A stretch of 64,000 bases of DNA from Clostridium sp. CAG:417 (lineage in GTDB: Bacteria; Bacillota_I; Bacilli_A; RF39; UBA660), in contig FR890371.1 in the NCBI GenBank assembly GCA_000432835.1, positions 62,915 through 126,914 on the forward strand, written 5' to 3'. The position numbers and the translations under genes are program-made. The notes beneath the pieces were generated by a model. That model was not told the DNA's origin, did not search any database, and worked only from the letters and a program-made list of their open reading frames with translations. Shown piece by piece: positions 41,790 through 63,373 of the stretch (position 1 is the stretch's first letter; the number at the start of each line of letters is the position of its first letter).

Positions 41790-42491
41790 GTGATTTATAT
41801 GTTTTTTCATGTGTTTGAAATGGTTCATCATTTGTTTTTTACGGGAAGTTATTCTAATCAGGTGTTTCCAGAACCATTGTCTTTAGAAGAAGAAACAGTT
41901 ACTATTGAAAAAATGTTAAAGGGGGATAAGGAGGCTCGAAATAAATTAATTGAACATAATTTACGTTTAGTCGCACATATAGTAAAAAAGTTTGATTTTA
42001 AAGAAGGAGACCAGGATGATTTAATTAGTATAGGTACTATTGGATTAATTAAGGGAGTAGATACTTTTTCTAATCTTAAAAGCGTTAAATTAACAACATA
42101 TTGTGCTAGATGTATAGAAAATGAAATTTTGATGTTTTTTAGGTCAAATAACAAAAATAATAAGAATGTATCCTTAAATGATGCGGTTGGATATGATAAA
42201 GATGGCAATGAAATAGCTATTTTAGATGTTTTAAAGACTCCGAAGGAGGACTTTTTTGAGGGAATTGCCTTAAAGGATGATATAAATCTTTTAAATCAAT
42301 ATTTTGAAGTCCTTTCAGAAAGGGAAAAAGATATATTGATACGACGATATGGACTTTATGGAAATGATGAACATACACAAAAAGAAATAGCTAAAACACT
42401 ACATATTTCTAGAAGTTATGTTTCTCGAATAGAAAAAAGAGCACTTACCAAAATTTTACGGGAATTTATTAAGAATAATCAAATAGATTAG
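41790..42491 (+). CDS. sigK: RNA polymerase sporulation sigma factor SigK (pro-sigma-K, uninterrupted)
   Basis: Pro-sequence ...NQVFPEPLSLEEE, NLRLVAHIVKKF, TYCARCIENEILM and ISRSYVSRIEKRAL closely match Bacillus SigK rather than SigE. Confidence 0.8.
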   Translation: MIYMFFHVFEMVHHLFFTGSYSNQVFPEPLSLEEETVTIEKMLKGDKEARNKLIEHNLRLVAHIVKKFDFKEGDQDDLISIGTIGLIKGVDTFSNLKSVKLTTYCARCIENEILMFFRSNNKNNKNVSLNDAVGYDKDGNEIAILDVLKTPKEDFFEGIALKDDINLLNQYFEVLSEREKDILIRRYGLYGNDEHTQKEIAKTLHISRSYVSRIEKRALTKILREFIKNNQID

Positions 42492-47788: not shown

Positions 47789-49525
47789 ATGAATGGACAG
47801 ACTGTTAGTAATTTAATTAGAAGTAAAACTGATATAGTAGATATTATAGGAGAAAGAATACCTTTAGTAAAAAAAGGAAAGAACTTTTTTGGAATTTGTC
47901 CGTTTCATGATGATACTAATCCTTCAATGTCTGTTTCTAGAGAAAAACAAATATATACTTGTTTTACTTGTCACGCTACGGGAAATGTTTTTAAGTTTTT
48001 AATGGATTATGAAAAAATGAGTTTTCCTGAGGCTTTAAAGTATTTGGGGGATAGAGTAGGAGTAGATACAAATAGTGTAAGGCTAAAAAAAGTAAATAAT
48101 AATAATGATAAATATTATGAAATGTATGACTTTGCAACTAAATATTATCAAAATAATATTTTATCTCCAGCTGGTAGTATGGCTAGAACTTATCTTTCGA
48201 AAAGAGGAATAGATAAAGATATCATTAAAAAATTTGAAATAGGTCTTTCTCTTCCTAATAATGCTGATTTAACAGAATTACTTTTGAAGAAGAAGTATGA
48301 TATAGTTGATCTTAATAAAGCAGGGCTTACTAATAGTAATTACGATGTGTATAAAGATAGAATTATGTTTCCCCTTTTTGATATAAATGGAAAAGTAGTA
48401 GGATTTTCAGGAAGAATATATAAAGATAGCCAAGATAATAAGTATTTGAATACAAAAGAGACTCCTATATTTGTTAAGGGAGAACAACTATATAATTATC
48501 ATATTGCTAAAGAGAAAGCTAGAATTTTAAAATATGTAATTATTATGGAAGGGTTTATGGATGTTATTAGAGCTAGTACTATTGGGTATGAAAATGTAAT
48601 AGCTTTAATGGGAACAGCTCTTACTCATGAACAAATGAAATTAATAAAGAGACTTTCTAATAACATTATATTGTGCTTAGATGGAGATAATCCAGGAAAA
48701 GCTGCGGCCTATAAATTAGGAGAAGAATTTTTAAAAGAAAAAATAGAAGTAAAAGTCGTTACCTTACCTAATAATGATGATCCAGATAGTTTTATTTTAA
48801 AAGAAGGAAAAGAAAAGTTTGCAAGATATATAGAAGAAGCAGAAAATTATAATGATTATAAAATTAGAGTAATGCGTGATAATGTTAATTTTCAAAGTGA
48901 TATAGAAAAAGCTAATTATATTAATAACGTTTTAAAAGAATTAACAGAAGTAAATGATGAAATAAGAATAGAAATTATTTTAAAAAAGCTTGCAAAAGAG
49001 TTCAATTTGGGGTATAATACGTTGGAAAAAAAGTTTTCTAACATTAAAAATAACAAACCTCAAGAAGAGATTAAATTTGTGCCAAAAAATACATCGAAAA
49101 GAAAAGATAAATATAGACAAGCCATAGAACAGGTAATATATTATATGCTTACTAATGAATGGGTAATTAGTGAAGTCGATAAAGAAAGACTCTTATTACC
49201 AGATGATAAAATTAGAATACTAGTACAAGAAATAATATATTATTATAAAACATATGGGGCAGTTTCAATTGCTGATTTTTATACATATTTACAAGATAAA
49301 CAAGAATTATTAGAGACTTTTAATAGTATTTTAAATAGCAATTATAATGATGAAGTTAGTAAGGAAGTTTTATATTTATATTTTGATGTTATTAGGGAAA
49401 ATGTAAAGAATAAAGAGATTAAGAGGTTGGAAGAAAAATTAGTCAAAGAAATAGATCCACTAGAACAAGCTAAGTTGGCTGATATGATTAGAAAGTTACG
49501 AATAGGAGAAAGTAATAATGGTTGA
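47789..49525 (+). CDS. dnaG: DNA primase
   Basis: Zinc-binding domain ([14 protein letters not shown]....CFTCH), TOPRIM (EGFMDV, DGDNPG). Start chosen at the ATG after GGAGA. Confidence 0.92.
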
Positions 49526-50612
49526 AGAAATAAAAACAATGGATGAGAGAAAAAATAAGTTAATCAATTTAGGTAAGAAGCAGGGATATATTACTTATGA
49601 ACAACTTGCTGATGAGTTAAAAGGATTAGATATTGATAGTGATGTTTTAGATGACCTTTATAATTCCTTGGTTGAAGTGGGTATTGAAATAGTAGCAGAA
49701 GATGGTAGCAGTGATGGTGATGATGGTAGTGATATTACTCAAGATATATCAGTTGAAGAGTTAACTTTATCAAAAGATGTTAAAATCAATGACCCTGTTA
49801 GAATGTATTTAAAAGAAATTGGTCGTATTAACTTACTTACATCAGATGAGGAGTTTGAATATGCTAGAAGGGCTATTGATGGAGATGAAGAAGCAAAGAA
49901 AATGCTTGCTGAATCAAATTTAAGATTAGTTGTTTCTATTGCTAAACGTTATGTAGGACGTGGTATGTTATTTCTTGATCTTATTCAAGAGGGAAATATT
50001 GGACTTATGAAGGCAGTAGATAAGTTTGATCCAACTAAAGGATATAAGTTTTCAACTTACGCTACTTGGTGGATAAGACAAGCTATAACTCGTGCTATTG
50101 CAGATCAAGCAAGAACTATCAGAGTTCCTGTTCATATGGTTGAAACAATCAATAAATTATCTCGTGTTCAAAGACAATTAACACAAGAGTTAAATCGTGA
50201 ACCTACAGATGAAGAAATCGCTAAAAAATTAGATATTCCAGTAGAAAAAGTAAGAGAAGTATATAAAATAAGTCAAGATCCTGTATCATTAGAAACACCA
50301 ATTGGTGAGGAAGAAGATTCACATCTTGGAGATTTCTTGCCAGATGAGAGAACAATGGGACCAGAAGAATTTACAACGCAAGAAATGTTAAAAGAAGAGT
50401 TAGATGGTGTCTTACTTACCTTGACTGATCGTGAAGAAAAAGTTCTTCGCCTTCGTTTTGGACTTGATGACGGTCAGTGTAGAACACTAGAAGAAGTAGG
50501 CCAAATCTTTGGAGTTACTAGAGAACGTATTCGTCAAATTGAAGCTAAGGCTTTAAGAAAATTAAGACATCCATCACGTTCAAGAAAATTAAAGGATTTC
50601 ATGACTGACTAA
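49518..50612 (+). CDS. rpoD: RNA polymerase sigma factor RpoD/SigA
   Basis: Regions 1.2-4 ([50 protein letters not shown]). Overlaps dnaG by 8 nt. Confidence 0.95.
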
Positions 50613-51400: not shown

Positions 51401-54034
51401 ATGAAATACGTTTATTTATTTAGTGAAGGTAATAAAAATATGAGGGAAATTCTAGGTGGTAAGGGTGCAAACCTTGCCGAAATGACTTCTCTAGGATTGC
51501 CAGTGCCACAAGGTTTTACGGTATCAACTGATGCTTGCCTTAGCTACTATAATAATGGAGAAAAGATAATACCAGAAATTGAGACAGAAATTTTTTCTAA
51601 ATTAGAAGAATTAGAAAAAATTACAGGTAAAAAGTTTGGAGATCTTTCTAATCCACTTTTAGTATCTGTTAGAAGCGGAGCAAGAGTTTCAATGCCTGGA
51701 ATGATGGACACTGTTTTGAATTTAGGAATGAATGATGCTATATGTGATAATTTAGAAAAAACTTTGGATAATCCAAGATTTGCTTTAGATAGTTATCGCA
51801 GATTAATTCAAATGTATAGTGATGTTGTTATGGGCTTTCCTAAGAGTAGTTTTGAAGGAGTTTTTGATAAATTTAAGGAAGATAAGGGCATAACCCTTGA
51901 TACTGAACTTTCAAATGATGATTTAAAAGAAATTATTAGACTTTATAAGAATGAATATTTAAAATTAGCAGGAGATAATTTTCCTAGTGATCCAAGGGTT
52001 CAATTGTTAGAGGCAGTTAAGGCTGTTTTTAGAAGTTGGAATACAGAAAGGGCAATTACTTATCGTAGATTAAATGATATTCCTTCTGATTGGGGAACAG
52101 CAGTTAATGTTCAACAAATGGTTTATGGAAATAGAGACAAAAATTCTGGTACTGGTGTTTGTTTTACAAGGAATCCGGCAACAGGGGACAAAAAGTTGTT
52201 TGGCGAATATCTAATGAATGCTCAAGGAGAAGATGTAGTTGCTGGTATTAGAACACCACAGGATATAAGTACATTAAAAGATGTAATGCCAGAGTGTTAT
52301 GAACAATTTCAAAATATTTGTAATGTGCTTGAAAATCACTATCATGATATGCAAGATATGGAATTTACTATTGAAGATGGTAAACTTTATATGTTACAAA
52401 CTAGAAATGGTAAAAGAACTGCAAAAGCAGCAATTAAGATTGCAGTTGATTTAGTTCATGAAGGACAAATTAGTATAAATGAAGCTTTGATGATGGTTGA
52501 TGCTAAAGACCTTGATCAGTTGTTACATCCTGTTTTTAATGAAGATGATTTAAAAAATAAAGAGGTTATTGCGACTGGTCTTGCGGCATCTCCTGGAGCA
52601 GCTACTGGTAAATTGTATTTTAGTGCGGAAGATGTGTTAAATGCTCATAAGGCAGGGGAAAAAGATATTATTTTAGCGCGTGAAGAAACTTCTCCTGAAG
52701 ATATAGAAGGTATGAATGTAGCACATGGTATTTTAACTGTTAGAGGTGGTATGACATCTCATGCAGCTGTTGTTGCTCGTGGTATGGGAACTACTTGTGT
52801 AAGTGGATGTAGTAGTTTAATTGTTGATAGTAGTAATAAAACTTTACAAACGAGTGATGGTAGAGTTTATCATGAAGGAGACTATTTAAGTCTTGATGGT
52901 ACTAGTGGTAGGGTTTATAGCGGAAAAGTAGAGTTACTTGATGCTAAAATTAGTGGTGAATTTGAAGAGTTTATGAACTGGGCTGATAGCGTTAGAAAGC
53001 TTGAAGTAAGAGCTAATGCAGATAATCCTAGAGATGCGAGAGTAGCTCATAATTTTGGAGCTCAAGGTATAGGACTTTGTCGTACTGAGCATATGTTCTT
53101 TAGTGAAGAGAGAATCTTTAACTTTAGACGTATGATAATTGCGACGACTGAAGAGCAAAGAAAAGAAGCTCTTAGTAAAATTTTACCTTATCAAAGAGAG
53201 GACTTTGAAGGGTTATTTTCTGAGATGAATAATTTACCTGTTATCATTCGTTTCCTTGATCCACCACTTCATGAATTTTTACCACATACGGATAGTGAAA
53301 TGGAAGAATTAGCTAATAGTATGGGAGTAGCGTTTGATGTAATTAAAAATAAAGTTGAGAGTTTAAAGGAATTTAATCCAATGATGGGACACAGAGGATG
53401 TAGACTTGATGTTACTTATCCTGAGATTGCTAGAATGCAAACAAGAGCTGTTATTGAGGCCGCTATTAATGTTACTTTACGAGGATTCAAAGTTATTCCT
53501 GAAATTATGATTCCGCTTATTGGAGATATGAATGAGCTTAAATATGTCAAAAAATTAATTACTGATGAAGCTTCTAAGGTATTTGAAGAAAACAGGATGA
53601 GGATTGATTATAAAGTAGGAACAATGATAGAAATTCCTAGAGCAACACTTATTGCTGATGAGATTGCCAGTGAAGCTGAGTTCTTTAGTTTTGGTACTAA
53701 TGACTTAACTCAACTTACTTATGGTTTCTCTAGAGATGATGCTTCTAAATTCTTGAAGGATTATTATGATAAAAAGATATTCCTACATGATCCTTTCCAA
53801 TCTATAGATGAAGAGGGAGTTGGAAAGTTGGTTGATATTTCTGTTAGAAAATCAAGGACAGTTCGTAGAGACATTGAACTTGGTATTTGTGGAGAACATG
53901 GTGGAGATCCTAAATCTATCGATTTCTGTCATAGGGTAGGACTTAATTATGTTTCTTGTTCTCCTTATAGAGTTCCAGTTGCACGTTTAGCTGCTGCGCA
54001 AGCTGCGATTAGAAATAGTATTGATGTAATATAG
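51401..54034 (+). CDS. ppdK: Pyruvate, phosphate dikinase
   Basis: ATP-grasp N-domain (GGKGANLAEM), central phospho-His domain (GGMTSHAAVVARG) and PEP-utilising C-domain (RTEHMF, GTNDLTQ). The last 12 codons lie in a direct repeat; see the repeat features. Confidence 0.95.
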   Translation: MKYVYLFSEGNKNMREILGGKGANLAEMTSLGLPVPQGFTVSTDACLSYYNNGEKIIPEIETEIFSKLEELEKITGKKFGDLSNPLLVSVRSGARVSMPGMMDTVLNLGMNDAICDNLEKTLDNPRFALDSYRRLIQMYSDVVMGFPKSSFEGVFDKFKEDKGITLDTELSNDDLKEIIRLYKNEYLKLAGDNFPSDPRVQLLEAVKAVFRSWNTERAITYRRLNDIPSDWGTAVNVQQMVYGNRDKNSGTGVCFTRNPATGDKKLFGEYLMNAQGEDVVAGIRTPQDISTLKDVMPECYEQFQNICNVLENHYHDMQDMEFTIEDGKLYMLQTRNGKRTAKAAIKIAVDLVHEGQISINEALMMVDAKDLDQLLHPVFNEDDLKNKEVIATGLAASPGAATGKLYFSAEDVLNAHKAGEKDIILAREETSPEDIEGMNVAHGILTVRGGMTSHAAVVARGMGTTCVSGCSSLIVDSSNKTLQTSDGRVYHEGDYLSLDGTSGRVYSGKVELLDAKISGEFEEFMNWADSVRKLEVRANADNPRDARVAHNFGAQGIGLCRTEHMFFSEERIFNFRRMIIATTEEQRKEALSKILPYQREDFEGLFSEMNNLPVIIRFLDPPLHEFLPHTDSEMEELANSMGVAFDVIKNKVESLKEFNPMMGHRGCRLDVTYPEIARMQTRAVIEAAINVTLRGFKVIPEIMIPLIGDMNELKYVKKLITDEASKVFEENRMRIDYKVGTMIEIPRATLIADEIASEAEFFSFGTNDLTQLTYGFSRDDASKFLKDYYDKKIFLHDPFQSIDEEGVGKLVDISVRKSRTVRRDIELGICGEHGGDPKSIDFCHRVGLNYVSCSPYRVPVARLAAAQAAIRNSIDVI

Positions 54035-54046
54035 AGTAAAAGTAGA
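53999..54046 (+). repeat. Direct repeat copy 1 (48 bp, 47/48 identical to 63326..63373), spanning the last 12 codons and stop of ppdK
   Basis: caaGctgcgattagaaatagtattgatgtaatatagagtaaaagtaga occurs twice. Candidate attL-like junction. Confidence 0.85.
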
Positions 54047-54353
54047 AAAAATAACAAAAATGTTTTTAGGTGGCATAATCATTATGAATGACGATATTAT
54101 AAGGTATAGAATGATATACCTGAATGTAAAAATATAGTCATTAAAAATCACTTATTCCTGATGTTTATATATAATTTTAAGACTGAGATGACTTTTATGT
54201 CGCAAAGCTCAGTCTTTTTATGTGAAAAATATATATGTGCGATAAGTTGTTGGAAAATTAAAAAATGGAATTAATATATACAAAATGTAAGTTAATGAAT
54301 TTATCATAATAATCAAGAATTGATTTGTAAGACGTTTTAGATTTTTAATATAG

Positions 54354-54489
54354 GATGATGTATCAGATAAACTTGGTTTGTTTGGTTATTGTAAAAGAAG
54401 AATAATAGCAAGATATGAAAAAGAAGATAGAATCCCAAAAGATGAAAGATTAATATAAATAGCAAATATTTTAAATGTAAGTTTTAATT
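54354..54489 (+). pseudogene. Fragment of an XRE-family HTH regulator, missing helix 1 and the start codon and carrying an internal stop
   Basis: In-frame translation ...ISDKLGLFGYCKRRIIARYEKEDRIPKDERLI*IANILNVSFN matches the C-terminal half of Cro/C1-type HTH domains (IskwE.G...P....L..iA.il.VS.d). Confidence 0.4.
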
Positions 54490-54909
54490 AAATTAAAAAA
54501 TATGATTATAACAATCTAATAGGCTTAATTTATACTTTAATGTGGTTAAAAGAATTAATTCTCAATTATTATATTAAAGATTTTGATGATGATGAAGCAA
54601 TTATATGTATGGTAGATTCAAATAAGATATCTCCATTTTAAAAAGAATTGAGTCAGTAATTTCTTGTCAAATACTTGGAAGAGATAAAAGATATATTAAA
54701 AAATATATAATTGGAACAATTAAATTATACAATAAAAATAATAGACAAAGTAAACTTTTTACAAAAAATGTGGTATAACATTGTTGATAAAATTTTCGGG
54801 TGAATGATACAATGAAGAAGGAAAATATTCTAAATTTATTTATAGGTAATATTATAAATATTATTATTACTGTCATACCTCCTATTGCAATATTTAGTTT
54901 TTATAATGA

Positions 54910-55038
54910 ATTGGTCGTATTAACTTACTTACATTAGATGAGGAGTTTGAATACTCTAGAAGAACTATCAATAGAGATGAAGAAGCAAAGGGAATGCTTG
55001 CTGAATCAAATTTAAGATTAGTTGTTTCTATTGCTAAA
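54910..55038 (+). pseudogene. 129-bp partial duplicate of rpoD (nt 49818..49946, sigma region 1.2/2.1), about 92% identical, with no start codon
   Basis: 119/129 identical positions by manual alignment. The encoded peptide [43 protein letters not shown] matches the host [43 protein letters not shown]. The two sequences diverge immediately after. Confidence 0.8.
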
Positions 55039-55464
55039 CATAATACGAGAATAGATTATATTGGACATATTGCTGATACTCTTGGAGTATCTTTAGAACA
55101 ATTATTTGCAGAAATATTAAGAAGTTTCGTTTAGAAAAATATAATAAGTTTAATAAGAAAAACTTAAATACATCTATTAATCCATATTCTACTGAGAATA
55201 TTTCTGCATTTTTAGATTATAATCACAATTTTTATAGGAAATTTGAAAGTGATAATGAGATGATACTTTTAGAAAAACTAGTTAAATTATCTATTATTTT
55301 AGATAAAAAATTGAATGATTTTATTAGATAACTAATTGTTAAAAAAGCTTTGACTTTCCAGGAAAAAAATGGTAAGATATGCCTCAAAAAGAGGAGTATC
55401 ATTAATAAATTTAAAATTACAAAAATATTCTTTTTTACATTTTAAATGAAAAGGAGGAAATAAT

Positions 55465-56109
55465 GTGTTTGAAACGGAGGTTAGATTTTATTTTAATAAA
55501 AATGAATCTACAAAAATTATATCTTATTTAAAAAATATAGATTTGCTTTCTTTTGATGGTAGATTTTATGAGGTAACTCAACAATTTGATCATCCAGAAA
55601 TTTCTAAGTCTTTTTATTCATTGCAAGTTGATGGCAGATTTAGAGTTAGATTGTCAAAAGGTGAATTGTTTAGTAAGTTAAAAGTATCATGGAAACAGCG
55701 TTTAAAAAAAGATAGAATTGATAATAAAATTCATAGGGAAAGGGAAGTTGAAATTAATTTAAATCCAAATGAGTATGATAATTTAATGTATATATTGAAT
55801 GAAGTTATTGATATGAAACTTGTAGAGAGTTATGAAAGATATAGGAGTGCTTTTTCTAATAAAGAAGTAGAAATAGTTGTGGATGAGTATCCATTTGCTA
55901 CAGCTATTGAGATTGAAAGCAAAACTGATGACTCTATATCATTAAATTTGTGGATAGACAGATTGGGTTTAAAATTAGAGGATGCTTATAGTTTATCTTG
56001 GGATGATAAATATAATGAATTATGTAAAGAACAAGGGAAAACAGCAACTAAGTTTGTTACATTTGAATCTGATATGCCAGAGTTAAAAAATTGTATTTTT
56101 GGAGAATAA
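55465..56109 (+). CDS. CYTH-like triphosphate tunnel metalloenzyme (class IV adenylyl cyclase/triphosphatase fold)
   Basis: N-terminal ExExR (FETEVRF), an R-rich strand (GRFRVRLSKGE), REREVEINL, and a C-terminal ATAIEIESK acidic strand, matching the CYTH motif pattern. GGAGG RBS. Confidence 0.5.
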   Translation: MFETEVRFYFNKNESTKIISYLKNIDLLSFDGRFYEVTQQFDHPEISKSFYSLQVDGRFRVRLSKGELFSKLKVSWKQRLKKDRIDNKIHREREVEINLNPNEYDNLMYILNEVIDMKLVESYERYRSAFSNKEVEIVVDEYPFATAIEIESKTDDSISLNLWIDRLGLKLEDAYSLSWDDKYNELCKEQGKTATKFVTFESDMPELKNCIFGE

Positions 56110-56110
56110 A

Positions 56111-56980
56111 ATGGAAAGTATAAAGAAAATTGAAAATGGTAATCTTAATGATGTATATAAATTAGTTCTAAATAATAAAAAGTATATTTTAAGAGTGACA
56201 AAATTTAATAATGATTGTGAGATAAATACATTGCTAATTTTAAAAAAATATAATTTAAATGTGCCAAATCTGTTAGCTCATTTTAGTGTTTATAATAAAA
56301 ATGTAATGTTATTAGATTATATTGAAGGGAGTAATCCTCTGAAAATTGATACTAAATTTATTACTGAACTTTTAAAACAGTTAAAAAAACTTCATAATAT
56401 TCCATATGAACATTTGGAAGAAAAATCAATAAATACAATAGAAAATTTTGAAAGATTGAGTGAATATTATGTTGTAAGCAAAGAATCAAATTTTTTAAAG
56501 CAAAAAATTCATTTAATTAATTCTATTTTGGAAGATGTTAGAGATATACCTTTTGATAAAATACCAAAATGCATAGTACATTCTGACATAAAAAAAGAGA
56601 ATGTGCTAGTAAATAATAATATTGTTTACATAATTGATTTTGGAAATAGTTATATAGGAAATAGGCTAATAGATTTAGTTAGAATAATTATGTGGTTTTT
56701 TTTGAAAGAAAATGATTTTAATATTGACGAAATAGAAAACAGTTTTAAAGTATATTTTGAAAATAATCATCTTATTGATTTAGAATATAATAATCTTAGT
56801 AAAATAATAAAATTTTGTGTTATTTATAATTTAATTAAAGATGTTTATTTATTTGAAAAAGGATTCTTATCTGAAAATTATGTTGTTAAAAATGATACAA
56901 AATGGTTAAATGCATTGGAAAATGAACAATTATTAGAGAAAGTAAAGGAGGCTTTAAATAATGCTAGTAGATATTCATAA
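56111..56980 (+). CDS. APH/choline-kinase-like small-molecule phosphotransferase (protein-kinase-like fold)
   Basis: Gly-rich loop region (GNLNDVYKL), catalytic VHSDIKKENVL (HxDxxxxN) and IIDFGNS (DFG-like). Confidence 0.6.
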   Translation: MESIKKIENGNLNDVYKLVLNNKKYILRVTKFNNDCEINTLLILKKYNLNVPNLLAHFSVYNKNVMLLDYIEGSNPLKIDTKFITELLKQLKKLHNIPYEHLEEKSINTIENFERLSEYYVVSKESNFLKQKIHLINSILEDVRDIPFDKIPKCIVHSDIKKENVLVNNNIVYIIDFGNSYIGNRLIDLVRIIMWFFLKENDFNIDEIENSFKVYFENNHLIDLEYNNLSKIIKFCVIYNLIKDVYLFEKGFLSENYVVKNDTKWLNALENEQLLEKVKEALNNASRYS

Positions 56981-57752
56981 AAATAAAGATTTAAGGAATA
57001 TAGAGGTTAATAATATAGGAATTTGTGATTATAAATTGCCAATAATATTTAAAAATAAGAGCAATATTTTTCCTACTATTGCAACTATTACTTCTACAGT
57101 AGTTTTAGATAGGAACCTAAAAGGCGCTCACTTAAGTAGAATTTCTGAGGTTATTAATGATTCATTAATAAACAAAAACATTTCATTGGGTGATATTAAT
57201 GATATAACTAAAGAAGTTGCAGAAAGATCAGAAACTAAAGGTGCTAATTTAATATTATCATTCGATTTAATTAACAAAAGATTAACACCTGTATCTAAAA
57301 AGGATTCTTATTTATCTTCTAAAATTACAATAATTAGTGATATTTTTGATAAAAGTGTTAGCAATAAATTGATTGTAGAGACTGTTGGTACAATGCTTTG
57401 TCCATGTTCAAAAGCAATTTCTAAGTATGGTGCACATAATCAAATATGTAATTTAAAAGTTTCGTTAACAGGTAATATTGAAAGTATAGATGTTGAAAAA
57501 ATTATTGATATTATGGAACAACAATTTAGTTCACCTGTTTATAGTACTGTTAAAAGAGAAGATGAAAAATACATTACTGAAAAGGCTTATGAAAATCCTA
57601 AGTTTTCAGAAGACTTGATTAGAGATACTATAATAGCTATTCATAATTATTATTCTGCTTGCGATATAAGGGTAGAATTAGTCAACAATGAATCAATTCA
57701 TCAACATAATGTTTATGCAATGGGAGAACAAAATGCTGATTTTAACTCATAA
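56961..57752 (+). CDS. folE2: GTP cyclohydrolase FolE2/MptA family (GCYH-IB)
   Basis: KGAHLSRISE (the ..H.SRF motif), CPCSKAIS...GAHNQ and C-terminal NESIHQHNVYA (ESIHNHSAYA-like), diagnostic of FolE2/MptA. AAGGAGG RBS. Confidence 0.7.
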   Translation: MLVDIHKNKDLRNIEVNNIGICDYKLPIIFKNKSNIFPTIATITSTVVLDRNLKGAHLSRISEVINDSLINKNISLGDINDITKEVAERSETKGANLILSFDLINKRLTPVSKKDSYLSSKITIISDIFDKSVSNKLIVETVGTMLCPCSKAISKYGAHNQICNLKVSLTGNIESIDVEKIIDIMEQQFSSPVYSTVKREDEKYITEKAYENPKFSEDLIRDTIIAIHNYYSACDIRVELVNNESIHQHNVYAMGEQNADFNS

Positions 57753-58581
57753 AGAATTGTATGATAGATATTTAATCAATGTTGGTGATGACTCTAAAAA
57801 GGAAATTAAATCTATATTAACGGCTATGGAAAAACATGGCTATTCTAGTTTGATAAAACAAAAAATTAACATGAATGAAGAAACATTTTATTATTTATAT
57901 TCTTTGTTAATAAAATTAAAAGAAATATTTGATACAAGATATAACAATAGAAATGATTTAGAAATCTTTTTTGATTATGTATTACAAGGTATCGATAGTA
58001 TTCCAATTAACTTTTATGCTATTTTTTGTCCTGGTTATAATGATGATGGATACAAAGATAGGCTAGGTAAAACTACTACTACTAAAATACAAAAACTTTT
58101 TCAAATGAAACAATTATTAGATAAGGAGAATGTTTTACATAATATTCATTGTTTATATGCAGATATTTTTTTAGAGAATTGTGATGAACTTAAAAATCCA
58201 AATTGGGAAAAGGAATTAGAGGTTAATAAAAATCTATTTAAGGAATATGCCATTAAATATTTAGAATGTGCAGATATTGGTTTTTTATCAAGTTATTTTT
58301 CTGATAGTAAATATCAGAGAGGCTTTGTTGATTCTAGTATTATTAATGGTAATAATTATGAGTCATTTAGAAAATATAATAATAATTTTTATATGAAAAT
58401 GGGCTGGGATGATGCTAAAACAAAAGAACGTAATGATAAGTTATATACAATTTATAATATAATTGCTGAATATATTATCAATACAAAATCAAATGGTGTT
58501 TATTTACCGATGGAGAATATGTATGCACGAACTAAAGTGTTTACTAAGAAAAAAGTGAGTTCAATGTATTTTAAATTGTAG
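57733..58581 (+). CDS. Hypothetical protein (283 aa), unique to this operon
   Basis: Start at the ATG after GGGAGAA, overlapping folE2 by 20 nt (translationally coupled). No recognisable motif. Confidence 0.4.
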   Translation: MLILTHKELYDRYLINVGDDSKKEIKSILTAMEKHGYSSLIKQKINMNEETFYYLYSLLIKLKEIFDTRYNNRNDLEIFFDYVLQGIDSIPINFYAIFCPGYNDDGYKDRLGKTTTTKIQKLFQMKQLLDKENVLHNIHCLYADIFLENCDELKNPNWEKELEVNKNLFKEYAIKYLECADIGFLSSYFSDSKYQRGFVDSSIINGNNYESFRKYNNNFYMKMGWDDAKTKERNDKLYTIYNIIAEYIINTKSNGVYLPMENMYARTKVFTKKKVSSMYFKL

Positions 58582-58591
58582 AGGAGTAAAT

Positions 58592-60604
58592 ATGAATTAT
58601 AAAGAAAAAGGTAATCTGTTTTGTAAAGAAATAAATCAATTATTGGCAAATAAAAATGAATACTATGCTTTGGTTACTGGAGGTGGATTTGCTTATGATT
58701 CTGTAAAGTATTCGGATACTATACAGGGTGATTATGATTTTATGATAGTATATAAGGATGTTGAGCAATTAAATTCTTTAATAGAAGAATTAGAAAAAAT
58801 TCCATTTGATTTTGAAAAGAAATATTTAGTTTCTGATTTACATTTATTAAAAAGTAAAGTAATAGATATCATAAGATTAAGTGGTAAATATCGTGGTACC
58901 AAGAGTACTATTAACTTAGTAAACATAGAGTTAATTAAAAGAATAGCAAATTTGGAAACAAGAATGTCTTTAAAGAAAATTGCTCATAATAGAAATACTG
59001 GTCTGTTTTTTGCATATGGTTCTGATAATAGCAGAATAATTGTAAACTTTTTATCACCATCATTTGTTAGTAATGATGGTGAAGATCACTATATTCATTT
59101 AGATTTTTCTAATATTATTGTAGATAATAATATTTATTTTGGTATATTAGCAGATGCTATTTTAAAGGGTTTTAATAGTAATTATGATAATGTAGGCTTT
59201 AAGAAAGTACGTCAAAAGATGATAAAAAATATTAATAACTTTTTTAAAAATAATAAAATCGATAATAGTAATTATCTAAACTTGTATGCTAACAATATAT
59301 ATTTTCCAGAAAGTTTAAAAAGACAATTACTTGAAGAATTCAATAAATATGGTAAAAATGTTTTTGCAGAAAAAAATACTATATCTAATACAAAATATCC
59401 AATTATTTTTGCTGTTGATAATCCAATTAATAGAAAAATGAATCCATTTAATTTTATAAATAATAAAAGTTACAGATGTTCTTTTGATGATTATATTAAT
59501 GAAATGCAAAAAAATGAATATGATAGACAATATTTGCTAGACGCATTAGCTAAATTGTTTGGATATGTTGCTTTTTCGAATAGTAAATTAGAGGGTGATA
59601 ATTATATAGAAAATATCATATCTAAATTCAGTGTATATGGTAATAATGATTTGTATTTTGAAGGAATTGAAAAATATTCTGTTAATACTATTTTTGGTTC
59701 ATTTATTAATGATTTAAAAGTAAATAGATTTAAATATAACCCTATTTTATATAAAAATTATTTGCTAATGTTGTTAAGTTTTTTGTCATTTTATAATAAT
59801 AAGAATATTTTTGATATGTCCTTAAAATATGAAGTTAATGTTCAAAAATTGGTTAAACCTGAATTAGATAATACTAAAATGAATAGTAAAGTAATATTGA
59901 AGTTGTTTAATTTTGATGATATAGGTATGTATCATAATTATACATCAAAGGTTATGCCTGGATATACACAAACTGAATGTGATTTTTTAGAAAAAGTATT
60001 TATAGATAAAAAAGAGCCTGTTTTAGATATTATGTGTGGATATGGAAGAATAGCTAATGAATTAGTTAAAAGAAATTATAAAAATGTGTATGGCGTTGAT
60101 TTTTCTGGTTATTCTTTTTTGAATGTAGATAAGAATTTTATTTTTTCTAAAGATGATTTCTTTCATTATCGACCAGGTATATTATTTAAATATTTATATA
60201 GCTTATATAATTGTTATGAAAATAAGGAATATTTGAGAAAAGTAATCAATAAAATGGCAGAATTGTCTGCTGATAATGCTCTTGCTATTTTAGATGTTTT
60301 TAACAAAGAATGGCGAGATAAAATAGATCCTGAATTTTATAAATTGCTTTTTGATAGTTCTCCTGTAAAATTAGAAATTAGTAGGCATTATGATGATACA
60401 ACAGGCGTTGAAACAACTAAATATTTAAAAACAATGTCTGATAATGAACAAGAAGAATATAGTTTTTCTCAAAAGTTTTTTACACAGACTGAGATAGAGG
60501 AGTCTATAGATTATAAAAAATGGAATATAGATTTTTTTACATCTGCTGAGGTTGGATCAAGAAATAATAATCAGAAAAGAATTTTGGTTTTAAGGAGGCG
60601 ATAA
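58592..60604 (+). CDS. Two-domain protein: N-terminal nucleotidyltransferase (pol-beta-like) fold plus C-terminal class I SAM-dependent methyltransferase
   Basis: N-terminal LVTGGGFAYDSVKYSDTIQGDYDFMIV fits hG[GS]x(9-14)DhDh. C-terminal VLDIMCGYGRIANEL...VYGVDFS is SAM-MTase motif I plus the post-I acidic residue. Confidence 0.5.
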   Translation: MNYKEKGNLFCKEINQLLANKNEYYALVTGGGFAYDSVKYSDTIQGDYDFMIVYKDVEQLNSLIEELEKIPFDFEKKYLVSDLHLLKSKVIDIIRLSGKYRGTKSTINLVNIELIKRIANLETRMSLKKIAHNRNTGLFFAYGSDNSRIIVNFLSPSFVSNDGEDHYIHLDFSNIIVDNNIYFGILADAILKGFNSNYDNVGFKKVRQKMIKNINNFFKNNKIDNSNYLNLYANNIYFPESLKRQLLEEFNKYGKNVFAEKNTISNTKYPIIFAVDNPINRKMNPFNFINNKSYRCSFDDYINEMQKNEYDRQYLLDALAKLFGYVAFSNSKLEGDNYIENIISKFSVYGNNDLYFEGIEKYSVNTIFGSFINDLKVNRFKYNPILYKNYLLMLLSFLSFYNNKNIFDMSLKYEVNVQKLVKPELDNTKMNSKVILKLFNFDDIGMYHNYTSKVMPGYTQTECDFLEKVFIDKKEPVLDIMCGYGRIANELVKRNYKNVYGVDFSGYSFLNVDKNFIFSKDDFFHYRPGILFKYLYSLYNCYENKEYLRKVINKMAELSADNALAILDVFNKEWRDKIDPEFYKLLFDSSPVKLEISRHYDDTTGVETTKYLKTMSDNEQEEYSFSQKFFTQTEIEESIDYKKWNIDFFTSAEVGSRNNNQKRILVLRRR

Positions 60605-60606
60605 AT

Positions 60607-61143
60607 ATGTCAATTATAGCAATTGAAGGAAGTAACTGTAGTGGAAAGTCAACATTGATAGATTATTTAGTTAAATATTATAATTTTAAATCTTCAAAAT
60701 CAGTACCTGAGTGGTTTAGACCATATATACCTTTTGCAAGAGAATTACAACCTCAAATACAACGAAAAATATATGAGATAGGACATATTGCAGCGTACTA
60801 TGATGCACTAAAAGAAAAAAAATGTACTATTTTTGACCGTTGTTACTTTTCAACATATATTCGATTATCATATCAAGAAAGTAAAACTGTAAATGAGTGT
60901 GTAGATCAAATTGCTTCTTTTCACTATAAGCCTGATTTAATAATTGTTCTAACTGTTCCTAAAGAAATTATGGAGCAGAGGTTGGTAGAAAGGAATAAAC
61001 AGTTTAATCAGGATTTTTTTGAATATGAAAATTCTGTTTATTTACAATTATCACTCAAATATGATAACATTATATTAGTTGATAATAGTAAAAATATAAA
61101 ATTTTGTACGAATGAAATATTGAGAAAAATAAAAGGGAGATAA
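60607..61143 (+). CDS. Deoxynucleoside-kinase/thymidylate-kinase-like P-loop nucleoside (nucleotide) kinase
   Basis: IAIEGSNCSGKST P-loop in the dNK context (I.IEG..G.GKST), FDRCYFS (DR/ERS motif), and a lid/base-binding region. Confidence 0.6.
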   Translation: MSIIAIEGSNCSGKSTLIDYLVKYYNFKSSKSVPEWFRPYIPFARELQPQIQRKIYEIGHIAAYYDALKEKKCTIFDRCYFSTYIRLSYQESKTVNECVDQIASFHYKPDLIIVLTVPKEIMEQRLVERNKQFNQDFFEYENSVYLQLSLKYDNIILVDNSKNIKFCTNEILRKIKGR

Positions 61144-61146
61144 GTT

Positions 61147-62085
61147 ATGAATGATGTAAGAGAGCAATTGAAATATGTAGTGGAAAATAGTGTTTATGTA
61201 AAAATTAATTATACTCAATTAGATAATTTTATAAATAGTTTAGGAAAGCCAAATTATCGACATTGGTATAATTTTACTTCTTTAAATTTAAACGAAAAGG
61301 AAAAAATTATTTTAGCCTTTATAATAGAAAGTTTAAATTTTTGTTTTTGGCAAAAGCCAAAATTTAAAATTGAATATAAAGGTAATATTATAAAAGGGTC
61401 TGAGGCTTTATTTTATTCAATTATAAGAGAAGTAGAATCTAATAAAGATTTTTTAGATATAGAATTTTTAAATAAATTAACAAAAGATGATTTTGAAAAA
61501 ATATTTTATTCGCCTGATAGTATAATACCTTTATTCGATTTGAGATATGATCTTTTTAAAGATACTGTTAAAACAATGTATAATAAAGGACAGAGTTTTT
61601 TTGATGAATTGTTTAATAAGAAATCAGATGTTGATTTATTAAAGTATATTGTGTCAGAATTTAAGTATTTTGATGATAGTAGTATATATAAAGGTAAAAG
61701 AATAAAGTTTAACAAACGTGCTACTTTACTTGTTAATGACTTATATTATATGTCATCTACAATACATAATAATTTAAAAAATGTTGATAATTTAACAGGT
61801 TGTGCTGATTATGGTATACCAAGGACTTTAAGAACGTATGGGATTTTAGAATATAATGAGGAATTATCTAACATAATTGATAGTGAGATAGAGTTAAAGC
61901 ATGATAGTAATATGGAAATTGAAATTAGAGCTAATATGCTTTATGTATTAGAATTAATTAGAGAAAAATTAGAAAGTAAAGGTATTAAAATTAATTCTGT
62001 AGAATTAGATAATATTATTTGGCAGATGGGAACGAAGAAGAAAAATGTAAATCCATATCATCATACAATTACAATATTTTATTAG
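61147..62085 (+). CDS. qng1: Qng1/DUF2419-family protein (queuosine 5'-phosphate N-glycosylase/hydrolase homologue)
   Basis: Block-by-block similarity to human QNG1 (C9orf64): SLNFCFW vs TLNFSFW, KGKRIKFNKRATLLVNDL vs EGKRVSFYKRAQILVADT, GCADYGIPRTL vs FADYRLPQVL, EIEIRANMLYVLELIRE vs EVEIRGCSLWCVELIRD, C-terminal HHTITIFY vs HRIRCIYY. Confidence 0.65.
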   Translation: MNDVREQLKYVVENSVYVKINYTQLDNFINSLGKPNYRHWYNFTSLNLNEKEKIILAFIIESLNFCFWQKPKFKIEYKGNIIKGSEALFYSIIREVESNKDFLDIEFLNKLTKDDFEKIFYSPDSIIPLFDLRYDLFKDTVKTMYNKGQSFFDELFNKKSDVDLLKYIVSEFKYFDDSSIYKGKRIKFNKRATLLVNDLYYMSSTIHNNLKNVDNLTGCADYGIPRTLRTYGILEYNEELSNIIDSEIELKHDSNMEIEIRANMLYVLELIREKLESKGIKINSVELDNIIWQMGTKKKNVNPYHHTITIFY

Positions 62086-62423
62086 ATTCTATTATAAACT
62101 AAATTTTAGACAAGTTAGTAACCCACTATGATATTGACGGAGCCAATAATGAATTTGGGTAAAGGGAGTTTCCCTTTGAGGACCCACTTAGAGTAACAAA
62201 TTACAAAGTGTTATAACACAATAATGTTGTATAAAAATAACCATGTTGCTAAAAAGTGAAATGTGCCTCATACAGTAGACATCAATAAAAACCTATTTAA
62301 TAAAAATGTGGTAGAATACACTTCTGAAGGTGGTGTATTCTTATGATTTAAAAAGGAAAAAAGCATATTAAACATATTGATGAATTTAAAAAAATTAGAA
62401 ATGAACTTAAATATATTAACAAA

Positions 62424-62987
62424 ATGTGTGAAAAGTATAATGATAATATAAATTCAATAAATCACTATACTAAACCTGCAAATCTAGGAGATGGGTATGA
62501 TATTATAAGACCTATTCTATGGGATTATATAATTCAAATGGCGGTTGCAAATTCAGAAACACACAATATAATCCAGTTCTTAAGAGGTAAGGCTGAACTA
62601 TATGAGTCACAATTTTCTCAAAATGCATATTTTCACAGTATAGAAAGTTTTATTAACACTTTAAAAAATAGTAATAATTGTATTGTCGTTAATTTAGTTT
62701 CTAATTTAGAAACAAGAAAAAATAGAAATAGAATAAGATTTGAAAATGGTGGACATTATGTTTCTGATGATACTATGGACAAAATATATTCAAAAGACAT
62801 ATTTGAATATACAAAAACTGGCGAAAATTTTGGATATTTATTAGTTGCTGGTCAAACTATTCCAGTATATACTATTGTTAATGATAAAACACTTAACGAG
62901 ATTGCATTAAATAATTTTTTAGAATATAATGTCAATAGGGTAATAAAATATTACAATGATTTTAAGGAAGGAAAAACATGGAATTAA
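62424..62987 (+). CDS. Hypothetical protein, possibly the C-terminal part of a P-loop kinase-like fold. No ATG-initiated upstream extension.
   Basis: KNRNRIRF..GGHYVSDD is reminiscent of the lid region of adenylate/zeta-type kinases. Preceded by a TGgTAGAAT extended -10 and an AGAATACAC...GTGTATTCT hairpin in the 5' leader. Confidence 0.3.
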   Translation: MCEKYNDNINSINHYTKPANLGDGYDIIRPILWDYIIQMAVANSETHNIIQFLRGKAELYESQFSQNAYFHSIESFINTLKNSNNCIVVNLVSNLETRKNRNRIRFENGGHYVSDDTMDKIYSKDIFEYTKTGENFGYLLVAGQTIPVYTIVNDKTLNEIALNNFLEYNVNRVIKYYNDFKEGKTWN

Positions 62988-63277
62988 AAAAGATTCAAAA
63001 AGATGTTTGGCAGAATAAGTTAAACAAAGGATTTAATACAACAGATGTAAATAAAGAGTTTTGTTTATTATATGGAGAAGTTTCTGAAGCGTATGATGCT
63101 TGGAAAAAGAAAAAAGATGATTTGAATGAAGAATTAGCAGACATTGCTATTTACTTAATGGGTCTATCTGAAATGTTGGGTTTTGATTTAGCAGATGAAA
63201 TAGAGAAGAAAGTTTCTAAAAATGAAAAACGAGTATATAAAAATATAGATGGGGTTAATGTAAGAATAAGTGATTAA
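62978..63277 (+). CDS. MazG-like nucleoside triphosphate pyrophosphohydrolase (small all-alpha NTP-PPase)
   Basis: LYGEVSEAYDAWKK....EELADIAIYLMGLSEMLGFDLADEIEKK..KNEKRVY is the EExxE...ELADxxxY MazG/HisE-type signature. Confidence 0.6.
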   Translation: MELKKIQKDVWQNKLNKGFNTTDVNKEFCLLYGEVSEAYDAWKKKKDDLNEELADIAIYLMGLSEMLGFDLADEIEKKVSKNEKRVYKNIDGVNVRISD

Positions 63278-63325
63278 TATTTAGATTTAAATTTGTATTA
63301 AGATATTCCGAACTAAATCTTGGTA

Positions 63326-63373
63326 CAAACTGCGATTAGAAATAGTATTGATGTAATATAGAGTAAAAGTAGA
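63326..63373 (+). repeat. Direct repeat copy 2 (displaced native ppdK 3' end), followed by a terminator-like hairpin TTGTTTCTT-gaaaaa-AAGAAACAA
   Basis: 47/48 identity with 53999..54046. Still encodes ...TAIRNSIDVI* in frame. Candidate attR-like junction. Confidence 0.85.

What the first reader, a model, noticed from the sequence alone, without database searches (positions are those of the whole stretch)
54910..55038. A 129-bp, about 92%-identical copy of an internal rpoD segment lies in non-coding DNA 5 kb downstream of rpoD
By manual alignment, nt 54910-55038 match rpoD nt 49818-49946 at 119/129 positions. Similarity also extends a few nt upstream across a 1-nt indel. The copy keeps an open frame encoding [16 protein letters not shown]....[20 protein letters not shown] but has no start codon, and diverges completely afterwards. 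It lies inside the inserted element, next to a short 41-aa ORF (54812-54937) that reads into it out of frame. Two explanations fit:
- a relic of an element-borne sigma-70 paralogue that recombined with host rpoD
- a gene-conversion or illegitimate-recombination scar

Either way it is a substrate for homologous recombination between rpoD and the island.
Basis: seen in the sequence. Interest (0 to 1): 0.6.

Follow-up and report, generated by a model that had tools for sequence, protein, structure and literature searches.

The report
Decaying rpoD fragment: a recombination scar
A 135-145 bp piece of the host's own main sigma-factor gene was copied into the broken regulatory end of an inserted genomic island 5 kb away, joined at a 10-base stretch shared with a small regulator gene; it is a decaying rearrangement scar, not a second sigma gene, and is ordinary.

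Summary
Window 54910-55038 matches rpoD 49818-49946 at 119/129. BLAST extends this without gaps to 54897-55039 (E=5e-52).

The organism is the uncultured gut bacterium 'Clostridium sp. CAG:417'. The copy lies 850 nt inside a 9.3-kb island. The island sits at the 3' end of ppdK between 44-bp direct repeats and is absent from most strains.

The sequence after the copy is the 3' half of an 89-aa XRE regulator gene. Relatives of the island (L112, L113, L118) are 96% identical across the cargo genes. At this position they carry the intact XRE gene, a divergent 177-aa gene and a Mob_Pre relaxase. They carry no sigma gene.

The rpoD/XRE junction lies in a perfect 10-nt microhomology, TGCTAAACGT. Other species' rpoD genes match the copy at only 68-86% over the aligned stretches, and mostly worse than they match the host gene. 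The template was therefore the host lineage's own rpoD.

The copy has since decayed: 11/132 mismatches, including changes at conserved residues. It is one of at least five gene fragments in a 1.4-kb stretch built by repeated microhomology-mediated deletions.

Verdict: a non-functional illegitimate-recombination or templated-insertion scar. Interest is low.

The parts
49518..50612 (+). rpoD, the primary sigma-70 factor (364 aa), intact. It is the donor gene.
   Evidence: Pfam regions 1.1, 1.2, 2, 3 and 4 all match. The exact protein is CDC61231.1 of Clostridium sp. CAG:417.
49805..49949 (+). Template segment inside rpoD. It encodes the end of region 1.2 and the start of region 2 (residues about 97-144).
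   Evidence: blastn against the copy; three-way alignment.
54003..54046 (+). Left direct repeat of the island: the last 32 nt of ppdK including its stop codon, plus 12 nt downstream.
   Evidence: Exact 44-nt repeat of 63330-63373. Empty-site strains have a single copy.
54265..54590 (+). Pseudogene of a 164-aa XRE-type HTH regulator (psi-XRE#1) with in-frame stops. It is the remnant of a second element, 'A'.
   Evidence: HTH_3 E=1.6e-5. Intact 164-aa homologues are 76-80% identical. tblastn supports it.
54534..54624 (+). Fragment of a ParB_N gene (residues 65-94). A deletion of about 390 nt fused it to psi-XRE#1.
   Evidence: DNA and tblastn matches to L119 and L120.
54625..54896 (+). Orphan segment holding the start of the 41-aa hydrophobic ORF (54812-54937). 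Its origin is unknown. It forms the left side of the 5' junction.
   Evidence: No protein homologue. No DNA match in any fetched locus, phage or plasmid record.
54897..55041 (+). The rpoD-derived fragment, the subject of the finding. The first 13 nt are a weak match; the last 10 nt are shared with XRE.
   Evidence: There are 11 mismatches in 132 nt over 54910-55041.
55032..55041 (+). The 3' junction. The microhomology is TGCTAAACGT in both parents and reads TGCTAAACAT here, after a later G>A change at 55040.
   Evidence: Three-way alignment of rpoD, the window and the XRE genes of L113 and L118.
55032..55114 (+). The 3' half (residues about 49-75) of an 89-aa XRE HTH gene belonging to the cargo-carrying element 'B'.
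   Evidence: 97.6% nt identity to L112, L113 and L118. Protein hits P0009-P0041 are 81-96% identical over this stretch.
55103..55330 (+). Residues about 25-102 of the 102/103-aa second HTH gene. A deletion of about 245 nt at the microhomology ATTTGTAGAAA fused it to the XRE remnant.
   Evidence: tblastn; alignment to L113.
54994..55134 (+). Chimeric 46-aa ORF: 15 residues of sigma followed by 31 residues of the XRE tail. It is annotated in public records but is probably not a gene.
   Evidence: P0001 = CDC61234.1. The only Shine-Dalgarno-like sequence, AAGGG, ends 1 nt before the ATG (read directly from the sequence).
55465..63277 (+). Cargo operon of the island (nine genes): 214 aa, APH-like kinase, FolE2, 297 aa, 670 aa, dTMP-kinase-like, Q_salvage, 187 aa and MazG-like.
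   Evidence: Pfam and NCBIfam matches. About 96% identical to the Mob_Pre-linked copies L112, L113 and L118 over 55103-62114, where those loci end.
63330..63373 (+). Right direct repeat of the island.

Best explanation
The fragment is a non-functional scar of a microhomology-mediated rearrangement.

A mobilisable element carried, in order, a Mob_Pre relaxase, a 177-aa gene, an XRE gene, a 102-aa HTH gene and a nine-gene nucleotide-metabolism-like cargo. It came to lie downstream of ppdK in this lineage, next to the remnant of an older XRE#1-ParB_N element. One rearrangement then removed the relaxase side and the 5' half of XRE. In its place it left about 135 nt copied from the host's own rpoD, 5.09 kb upstream on the same strand.

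The right-hand join used the 10 nt TGCTAAACGT. These bases encode Ala-Lys-Arg in both rpoD (SIAKRY) and XRE (ENAKRN).

Two mechanisms give this same structure:
- a replication or repair template switch (a deletion with a templated insertion, MMBIR/FoSTeS-like);
- a tandem duplication with the junction 54896|49805, followed by a deletion from rpoD' into XRE.

Since then the copy has drifted neutrally.

Shown: the homology, the island boundaries, both parents of the 3' junction and its microhomology, the absence of the fragment from relatives, and the decay. Inferred: the order of events and the enzymatic pathway.
For: - Homology is 119/129 and 129/143, E=5e-52.
- The island is absent from most strains and is bounded by a 44-bp repeat of the ppdK 3' end.
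- The tail after the copy is the C-terminal half of a widespread XRE family of about 86-90 aa.
- L112, L113 and L118 carry the same cargo at 96% identity with an intact XRE, and their homology to the window begins exactly at 55032.
- The three-way alignment shows the crossover inside TGCTAAACGT.
- Over the aligned stretches, rpoD of other species is 68-86% identical to the copy, and in all but four loci scores lower against the copy than against host rpoD.
- Polarising the differences with outgroups shows that about 7 of 10 arose in the copy. They hit conserved residues (S>L, A>S, A>T, D>N, and G>R in GDEEAK).
- The G>A at 55040 differs from both parents, so it arose after the event.
- Nine of the ten differences are transitions, and their spacing fits uniform decay (P=0.07 for the 47-nt clean run).
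- The same 1.4 kb holds at least four other microhomology joins or deletions: XRE#1/ParB_N, XRE/102-aa, the L030 deletion and the L005 deletion.
- In eight and ten strain loci compared, the copy shows two singleton polymorphisms and the same segment of rpoD shows none.
Against: - The parent of the 5' junction is unknown. Window 54625-54896 has no homologue, so microhomology there cannot be shown; only a 9/13 match is seen.
- Two of the ten differences match outgroup states (AGA). The template may therefore have been an earlier or sister allele of rpoD rather than today's. This means the event is old, or happened in a very close relative, and that capture in place is not proven.
- Nothing here tests expression. 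A role for the 46-aa ORF or for an antisense transcript is not excluded.
Confidence: 0.85

Rival explanations
1. The fragment is a relic of a sigma-70 paralogue once carried by the island, most of which has been deleted.
For: The copy keeps an open frame. It differs from host rpoD at six amino-acid positions. Pfam gives a partial Sigma70_r1_2 hit (E=5.6e-5).
Against: - The closest intact relatives of the element have XRE at this position, not a sigma gene.
- No other sigma-like sequence occurs in the island.
- No protein or contig with the copy's sequence exists outside the island.
- The copy is about 92% identical to host rpoD, against 68-86% over the aligned stretches for the other species sampled.
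- The amino-acid changes hit residues conserved in all outgroups.
Confidence: 0.03
2. The fragment is kept because it does something. It could be the 46-aa chimeric peptide (the start of sigma region 2 fused to the last XRE helices). It could instead be a minus-strand transcript antisense to rpoD mRNA, with 47-nt and 25-nt perfect pairing, through which the island modulates host transcription.
For: - The ORF 54994-55134 starts exactly at the 47-nt perfectly conserved block and is annotated in public records.
- The copy-specific AAA>GGA change creates an AAGGG motif just upstream of the ATG (read from the sequence).
- A weak minus-strand promoter-like site lies at 55342-55315.
Against: - The Shine-Dalgarno-like motif ends 1 nt from the ATG, which is too close.
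- Promoter-like sites are not enriched over shuffles (21 found vs 15.4±4.0), and there is no terminator and no Rfam hit.
- Natural variants delete the fragment's first 92 nt (L030) or the ORF's 3' end (L005, L125).
- L005 carries a non-synonymous change in codon 3.
- The clean 47-nt run is not statistically unusual.
Confidence: 0.04
3. The fragment is the remnant of an attachment site: an element once integrated into rpoD and carried away a piece of its target.
For: Integrative elements do duplicate target-gene ends. This island itself duplicates the ppdK 3' end.
Against: - The fragment is internal to rpoD (residues about 97-144 of 364), and rpoD is essential. Integration there would be lethal unless the rest of the gene were supplied.
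- The fragment lies 850 nt inside the island, not at a boundary, and has no partner repeat at the other end.
- The junction lies inside the XRE coding sequence.
Confidence: 0.02
4. The copy is an assembly or sequencing artefact.
For: Several short-read contigs break exactly at the repeat: L023-L025 and L029 start at window 54993.
Against: The same structure is found in at least 10 independent assemblies, including contigs of 0.58-1.3 Mb that span rpoD, ppdK and the island.
Confidence: 0.01

Closest known systems
Microhomology-mediated illegitimate recombination, or template switching with a templated insertion (MMBIR/FoSTeS-type events; short-homology deletions in bacteria)
   Same: The join lies inside a short perfect identity (10 nt) shared by two otherwise unrelated genes. 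The inserted DNA is copied from a nearby template 5 kb away on the same strand. The event also removed DNA. Neighbouring joins likewise use about 5-24-nt microhomologies. PMC8421209 defines MMBIR as polymerase template switching at microhomology that produces templated insertions.
   Different: The pathway cannot be identified from sequence alone. The 5' junction's parent is missing. A two-step route (duplication, then deletion) gives the same product.
Gene remnants and pseudogene fragments in decaying genomic islands and prophages
   Same: The 1.4-kb left end of the island holds fragments of at least five genes (XRE#1, ParB_N, rpoD, XRE#2 and a 102-aa HTH gene) with stops and fusions. The element's relaxase is missing, and no integrase is seen.
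   Different: One of the fragments comes from an essential host housekeeping gene rather than from the element itself. That is less common, but it needs no new mechanism.
Target-site (att) duplications of integrative elements
   Same: A short copy of a host gene segment lies inside island DNA. The island's own ends are such a duplication, of the ppdK 3' end.
   Different: The rpoD piece is internal to its gene, is not at an island boundary, is unpaired, and is joined to the inside of another coding sequence.
Intervening elements that split sigma-factor genes (for example the skin element in sigK of Bacillus subtilis; from general knowledge, not tested here)
   Same: A mobile element is associated with sigma-factor gene sequence in a spore-forming Bacillota lineage.
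   Different: rpoD is intact here and is not split. The fragment is an extra, decayed copy. No recombinase is present.

Membership tests
Sigma-70 family gene or pseudogene carried by the element | Sigma-70 regions 2, 3 and 4 are present, or traces of them flank the fragment. | tested here: not met
   Only a partial Sigma70_r1_2 hit (18 of 34 profile positions, E=5.6e-5). tblastn of RpoD finds only residues 101-148 in the island.
Sigma-70 family gene or pseudogene carried by the element | Relatives of the element carry an intact sigma gene at the same position. | tested here: not met
   L112, L113 and L118 carry XRE (89 aa), a 102-aa gene, a 177-aa gene and Mob_Pre. None has a sigma domain.
Sigma-70 family gene or pseudogene carried by the element | The sequence is distinct from the host's own rpoD lineage, meaning closer to some other sigma gene. 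| tested here: not met
   The copy is about 92% identical to host rpoD and 68-86%, over the aligned stretches, to the rpoD genes of the 80 related loci fetched that gave a hit. The peptide-level scan found only the island.
Microhomology-mediated illegitimate recombination or templated insertion | The junction falls within a short identity shared by both parental sequences. | tested here: met
   At the 3' junction, TGCTAAACGT is present in rpoD and in the XRE genes of L113 and L118.
Microhomology-mediated illegitimate recombination or templated insertion | The second (5') junction also shows microhomology. | tested here: inconclusive
   The recipient parent was not found. Only a 9/13 match over 54897-54909 is seen.
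Microhomology-mediated illegitimate recombination or templated insertion | The inserted segment is absent from the ancestral or related arrangement, and its template can be identified nearby. | tested here: met
   The segment is absent from L112, L113 and L118. The template lies in rpoD, 5,092 nt upstream on the same strand.
Microhomology-mediated illegitimate recombination or templated insertion | The enzymatic pathway (replication template switch, end joining, or duplication followed by deletion). | not testable with these tools
   Sequence alone cannot tell these apart.
att-site duplication of an integrative element | The repeat lies at both element boundaries and matches the end of the target gene. 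| tested here: not met
   The rpoD fragment is single, lies 850 nt inside the island and comes from the interior of its gene. The ppdK repeat does meet this test.
Diversity-generating retroelement (template/variable repeat pair) | Mismatches are confined to adenines of the template, and a reverse transcriptase is nearby. | tested here: not met
   The ten differences are C>T, T>C twice, G>T, G>A four times and A>G twice. No RT domain occurs among the island proteins.
XRE-family HTH regulator (PF01381) | A complete HTH_3 domain with a start codon. | tested here: not met
   Only the last 27 or so residues of the 89-aa protein remain. Pfam finds no HTH_3 hit in the 74-aa frame.

The most novel reading that the evidence does not exclude
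The fragment could be a product of a recurrent, site-biased capture of foreign gene pieces at the 5' half of this XRE gene. Three other public contigs (L126, L127, L128) show the same XRE 3' half fused to unrelated N-terminal fragments, two of them at the same codon. The resulting chimeric 46-aa peptide, or an antisense RNA, might let the island tune host rpoD. The evidence does not exclude this. However, the three contigs are single, 554-685-nt metagenomic contigs, and one has a GC-rich partner typical of chimeric assembly. Natural deletion variants also remove parts of the fragment.
Probability: 0.04. Interest if true: 0.55.

Novelty: new member of a known kind. Interest (0 to 1): 0.15.

Why it matters
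It matters little biologically. It is a clean natural example in which both parents of a bacterial illegitimate-recombination junction can be identified to the base. It also shows that a mobile island can pick up a piece of an essential host gene 5 kb away.

There are two practical consequences:
- The 47-nt exact repeat breaks short-read assemblies at this locus.
- The chimeric 46-aa ORF is annotated in public databases (once as an 'RNA polymerase sigma subunit') and should be treated as a pseudogene fragment.

The island's cargo operon and the ppdK 3' end as an insertion hotspot are more interesting than the fragment itself.

Tried and rejected
- Initial guess of Clostridium perfringens: rejected. 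An exact 39-mer from rpoD found nothing among the species representatives. The best RpoD match there is 89%. Exact proteins belong to Clostridium sp. CAG:417.
- Phage or plasmid origin of 54044-55470: no blastn match. Viral contig scans were empty.
- RNA family or terminator in 53900-55600: none found, and promoter-like sites are not enriched.
- Foreign sigma as the source: rejected.
- Gene conversion to explain the mismatch-free flanks: not needed. Once the post-event mutation at 55040 is counted, the 47-nt clean run has P=0.07 under uniform decay.
- DGR-like mutagenesis: the mismatches are not adenine-specific.
- The 41-aa hydrophobic ORF as a real gene or a type I toxin: no homologue at all, and the L030 variant truncates it.
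- L021 (P0003) as the pre-capture ancestor: treated with caution. It is a 575-nt contig at 2x coverage. Its 5' half is only about 84% identical to the XRE gene and upstream region of L113, while its 3' part from about window 55070 is nearly identical to the window, so it may be a chimeric assembly.
- An exact scan of metagenome contigs for the XRE/102-aa fusion sequence found nothing.
- PADLOC gave no convincing defence-system assignment for the cargo.

Full report
**1. The observation**

Window 54910-55038 matches 49818-49946 at 119 of 129 positions. A blastn of 54601-55500 against the whole window gives a single significant hit: 54897-55039 against 49805-49947, 129/143, ungapped, E=5e-52. 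Every other hit is background, with E at or above 3e-4.

The donor is an intact rpoD gene (49518-50612, 364 aa) with all sigma-70 regions. The copied part encodes the end of region 1.2 and the first residues of region 2.

- The copy's frame is open from 54910 to 55134. It is closed upstream by TGA at 54907-54909.
- It contains an internal ATG at 54994, which gives a 46-aa ORF.

**2. Organism and island**

The exact RpoD, the 46-aa ORF and the next gene are CDC61231, CDC61234 and CDC61235 of the uncultured human-gut bacterium 'Clostridium sp. CAG:417'. Its nearest RpoD among species representatives is only 89% identical, in 'uncultured Bacilli' MAGs.

Looking up the exact TrmK protein returned ten neighbourhoods from Mb-scale contigs:
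- seven have ppdK followed directly by a MatE gene;
- two carry the same island as the window, at 99.8% identity;
- one (L005) carries the island with an internal deletion.

The island (window 54047-63373) is bounded by an exact 44-nt direct repeat, 54003-54046 = 63330-63373. The repeat comprises the last 32 nt of ppdK, including its stop codon, plus 12 nt. Empty sites hold one copy of it. The copy begins 850 nt inside the island's left end.

**3. What flanks the copy**

A protein search with the 74-aa frame showed that the tail (…[22 protein letters not shown]…) is the C-terminal half of a widespread XRE HTH family of about 86-90 aa.

Variants of the island's 214-aa protein led to three contigs, L112, L113 and L118. 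They carry the same cargo genes at about 96% nucleotide identity. Upstream of the cargo they have an intact 89-aa XRE gene, a 102-aa second HTH gene, a divergent 177-aa gene, a Mob_Pre relaxase and a KAP NTPase.

Their homology to the window starts exactly at 55032. None of them contains any rpoD-like DNA or any sigma domain.

**4. The junction**

The three-way alignment reads:
- rpoD: …TCTATTGCTAAACGTTATGTAGG…
- XRE (L113, L118): …GAGAATGCTAAACGTAATACGAG…
- window: …TCTATTGCTAAACATAATACGAG…

The crossover lies within TGCTAAACGT, a perfect 10-nt microhomology that encodes A-K-R in both proteins. The window's CAT differs from both parents, so it is a later G>A mutation.

About 60 nt further on, the XRE remnant is fused to codon 25 or so of the 102-aa gene. 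That fusion is a deletion of about 245 nt at the 11-nt microhomology ATTTGTAGAAA.

**5. The left side**

Window 54047-54624 is the decayed left end of a different element. It contains:
- a pseudogene of a 164-aa XRE family (HTH_3 E=1.6e-5, with in-frame stops);
- a 30-residue ParB_N fragment, fused to that pseudogene by a deletion of about 390 nt.

The same XRE#1-ParB_N module lies directly downstream of ppdK in another species (L120-L124). It also occurs next to a primase in L119.

Window 54625-54896, which holds the start of the 41-aa ORF, has no homologue anywhere I could search. The parent of the 5' junction is therefore unknown.

**6. Source and age of the copy**

Where they gave a hit, the rpoD genes of the 80 related loci fetched are 68-86% identical to the copy over the aligned stretches. 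In all but four loci they score lower against the copy than against the host gene.

A degenerate, peptide-level scan of the metagenome collection for the copy's own middle section found one locus, L125. It is another island of the same species.

Polarising the ten differences with seven outgroup rpoD genes gives two classes:
- About seven arose in the copy. They strike residues invariant in the outgroups, including G>R in GDEEAK.
- At two sites the copy keeps the outgroup state (AGA) and the host gene has changed.

The template was therefore the host lineage's rpoD, or that of a very close relative, some time ago.

Nine of the ten changes are transitions. Counting the change at 55040, there are 11 mismatches in 132 nt. 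The 47-nt clean run is not unusual (P=0.07), so no gene conversion need be invoked.

In eight and ten strain loci compared, the copy shows two singleton polymorphisms and the corresponding rpoD segment shows none.

**7. Continuing decay**

- L030 lacks window 54851-54988, a deletion between GGTAAT and GGGAAT.
- L005, L125 and proteins P0006 and P0008 lack 55074-60767. The breakpoints share a 24-nt, 83% match. This deletion fuses the first 27 codons of the 46-aa ORF to the C-terminal part of the kinase-like gene.

The whole 1.4-kb stretch is a graveyard of fragments made by short-homology joins.

**8. Mechanism**

The net event replaced the relaxase side of the element and the 5' half of XRE with about 135 nt templated from rpoD, 5,092 nt upstream on the same strand. 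The right join lies in a 10-nt microhomology.

Two routes give this product:
- a single template-switch event, that is, a deletion with a templated insertion. PMC8421209 defines this class of event.
- a tandem duplication with junction 54896|49805, followed by a deletion from the duplicated rpoD into XRE.

The junction, the parents and the decay are shown. The pathway and the order of events are inferred.

**9. Function**

Nothing supports a function:
- no Rfam hit, no terminator and no excess of promoter-like sites;
- a poorly placed Shine-Dalgarno-like motif;
- natural deletions of parts of the fragment.

As a recombination substrate it offers at most 47 nt of identity. A crossover between these direct repeats would delete the 3' two-thirds of rpoD together with trmK and ppdK, which should be lethal.

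**10. Verdict**

This is an ordinary kind of feature, though an unusually well-resolved instance. Interest is low.

Noticed in passing
window 55465-63277; L112, L113, L118: The island's cargo is a conserved nine-gene operon of uncharacterised, nucleotide-metabolism-like proteins. They are a 214-aa protein (named 'adenylate cyclase' by NCBI, no Pfam hit), an APH-like kinase, the GTP cyclohydrolase FolE2, a 297-aa unknown, a 670-aa protein with a weak SAM-methyltransferase-like stretch, a dTMP-kinase-like protein, a Q_salvage (DUF2419) protein, a 187-aa unknown and a MazG-like protein. In relatives the operon travels with a Mob_Pre relaxase. PADLOC gave no convincing hit. It could be a modified-nucleotide pathway or a defence pathway.
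   Followed up: partly
window 54003-54046 and 63330-63373; L120-L124: The 3' end of ppdK looks like a recurrent insertion site. An XRE#1-ParB_N element sits directly downstream of ppdK in a different species (ppdK about 70% nt identical). Here a 44-bp repeat of the ppdK end brackets a composite island that carries no integrase.
   Followed up: partly
L005 14383-14814; L125; proteins P0006, P0008: A strain variant deletes window 55074-60767 between 24-nt imperfect repeats. This creates a called 143-aa ORF that begins with 15 sigma-derived residues, continues with 12 XRE residues and ends as the C-terminal part of the dTMP-kinase-like protein.
   Followed up: yes
L030 694-700 (window 54851-54988 missing): Another variant lacks the fragment's first 92 nt (54897-54988) and most of the 41-aa ORF. 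The contig is a scaffolded metagenome with Ns, so this could be a real deletion or an assembly collapse.
   Followed up: partly
L126, L127, L128 (proteins P0012, P0036, P0014): Three single, 554-685-nt metagenomic contigs show the same XRE 3' half fused to unrelated N-terminal fragments: one FabG-like, one secreted and cohesin-like, one LanC-like. Two of them break at the same codon (YVSN). One partner is GC-rich, which suggests a chimeric assembly. Whether any of them is real is unresolved.
   Followed up: partly
L023, L024, L025, L029 (contigs start at window 54993): Several short-read assemblies break exactly at the 47-nt block that is identical between rpoD and the copy. This shows that the repeat fragments assemblies of this species.
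   Followed up: no
L021 (protein P0003): A 575-nt contig at 2x coverage has an intact XRE 5' half from a different allele (the XRE gene and upstream are about 84% identical to L113). It is joined to a 3' part that from about window 55070 is nearly identical to the window, including the XRE/102-aa deletion. It is either a recombinant or a chimeric assembly.
   Followed up: partly
protein P0002 (related species' rpoD): A called 102-aa protein is an rpoD from a related species, apparently frameshifted just after SIAK, the same place as the junction studied here. The frameshift was inferred from the protein sequence and the DNA was not fetched. It looks like a coincidence, probably a sequencing error in a run of A.
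   Followed up: partly
window 41790-42491: A second, shorter sigma factor gene (233 aa by the ORF listing; called as 230 aa with Sigma70_r2 and r4 in the related loci) lies 7 kb upstream of rpoD. It is only 27% identical to RpoD and is not the source of the fragment.
   Followed up: yes
window 62098-62256 vs L113 116-272: A 159-nt stretch just downstream of the Q_salvage gene is 82% identical to sequence upstream of the KAP NTPase gene in L113. This may be a repeated element or a trace of the circular form of the mobilisable element.
   Followed up: no
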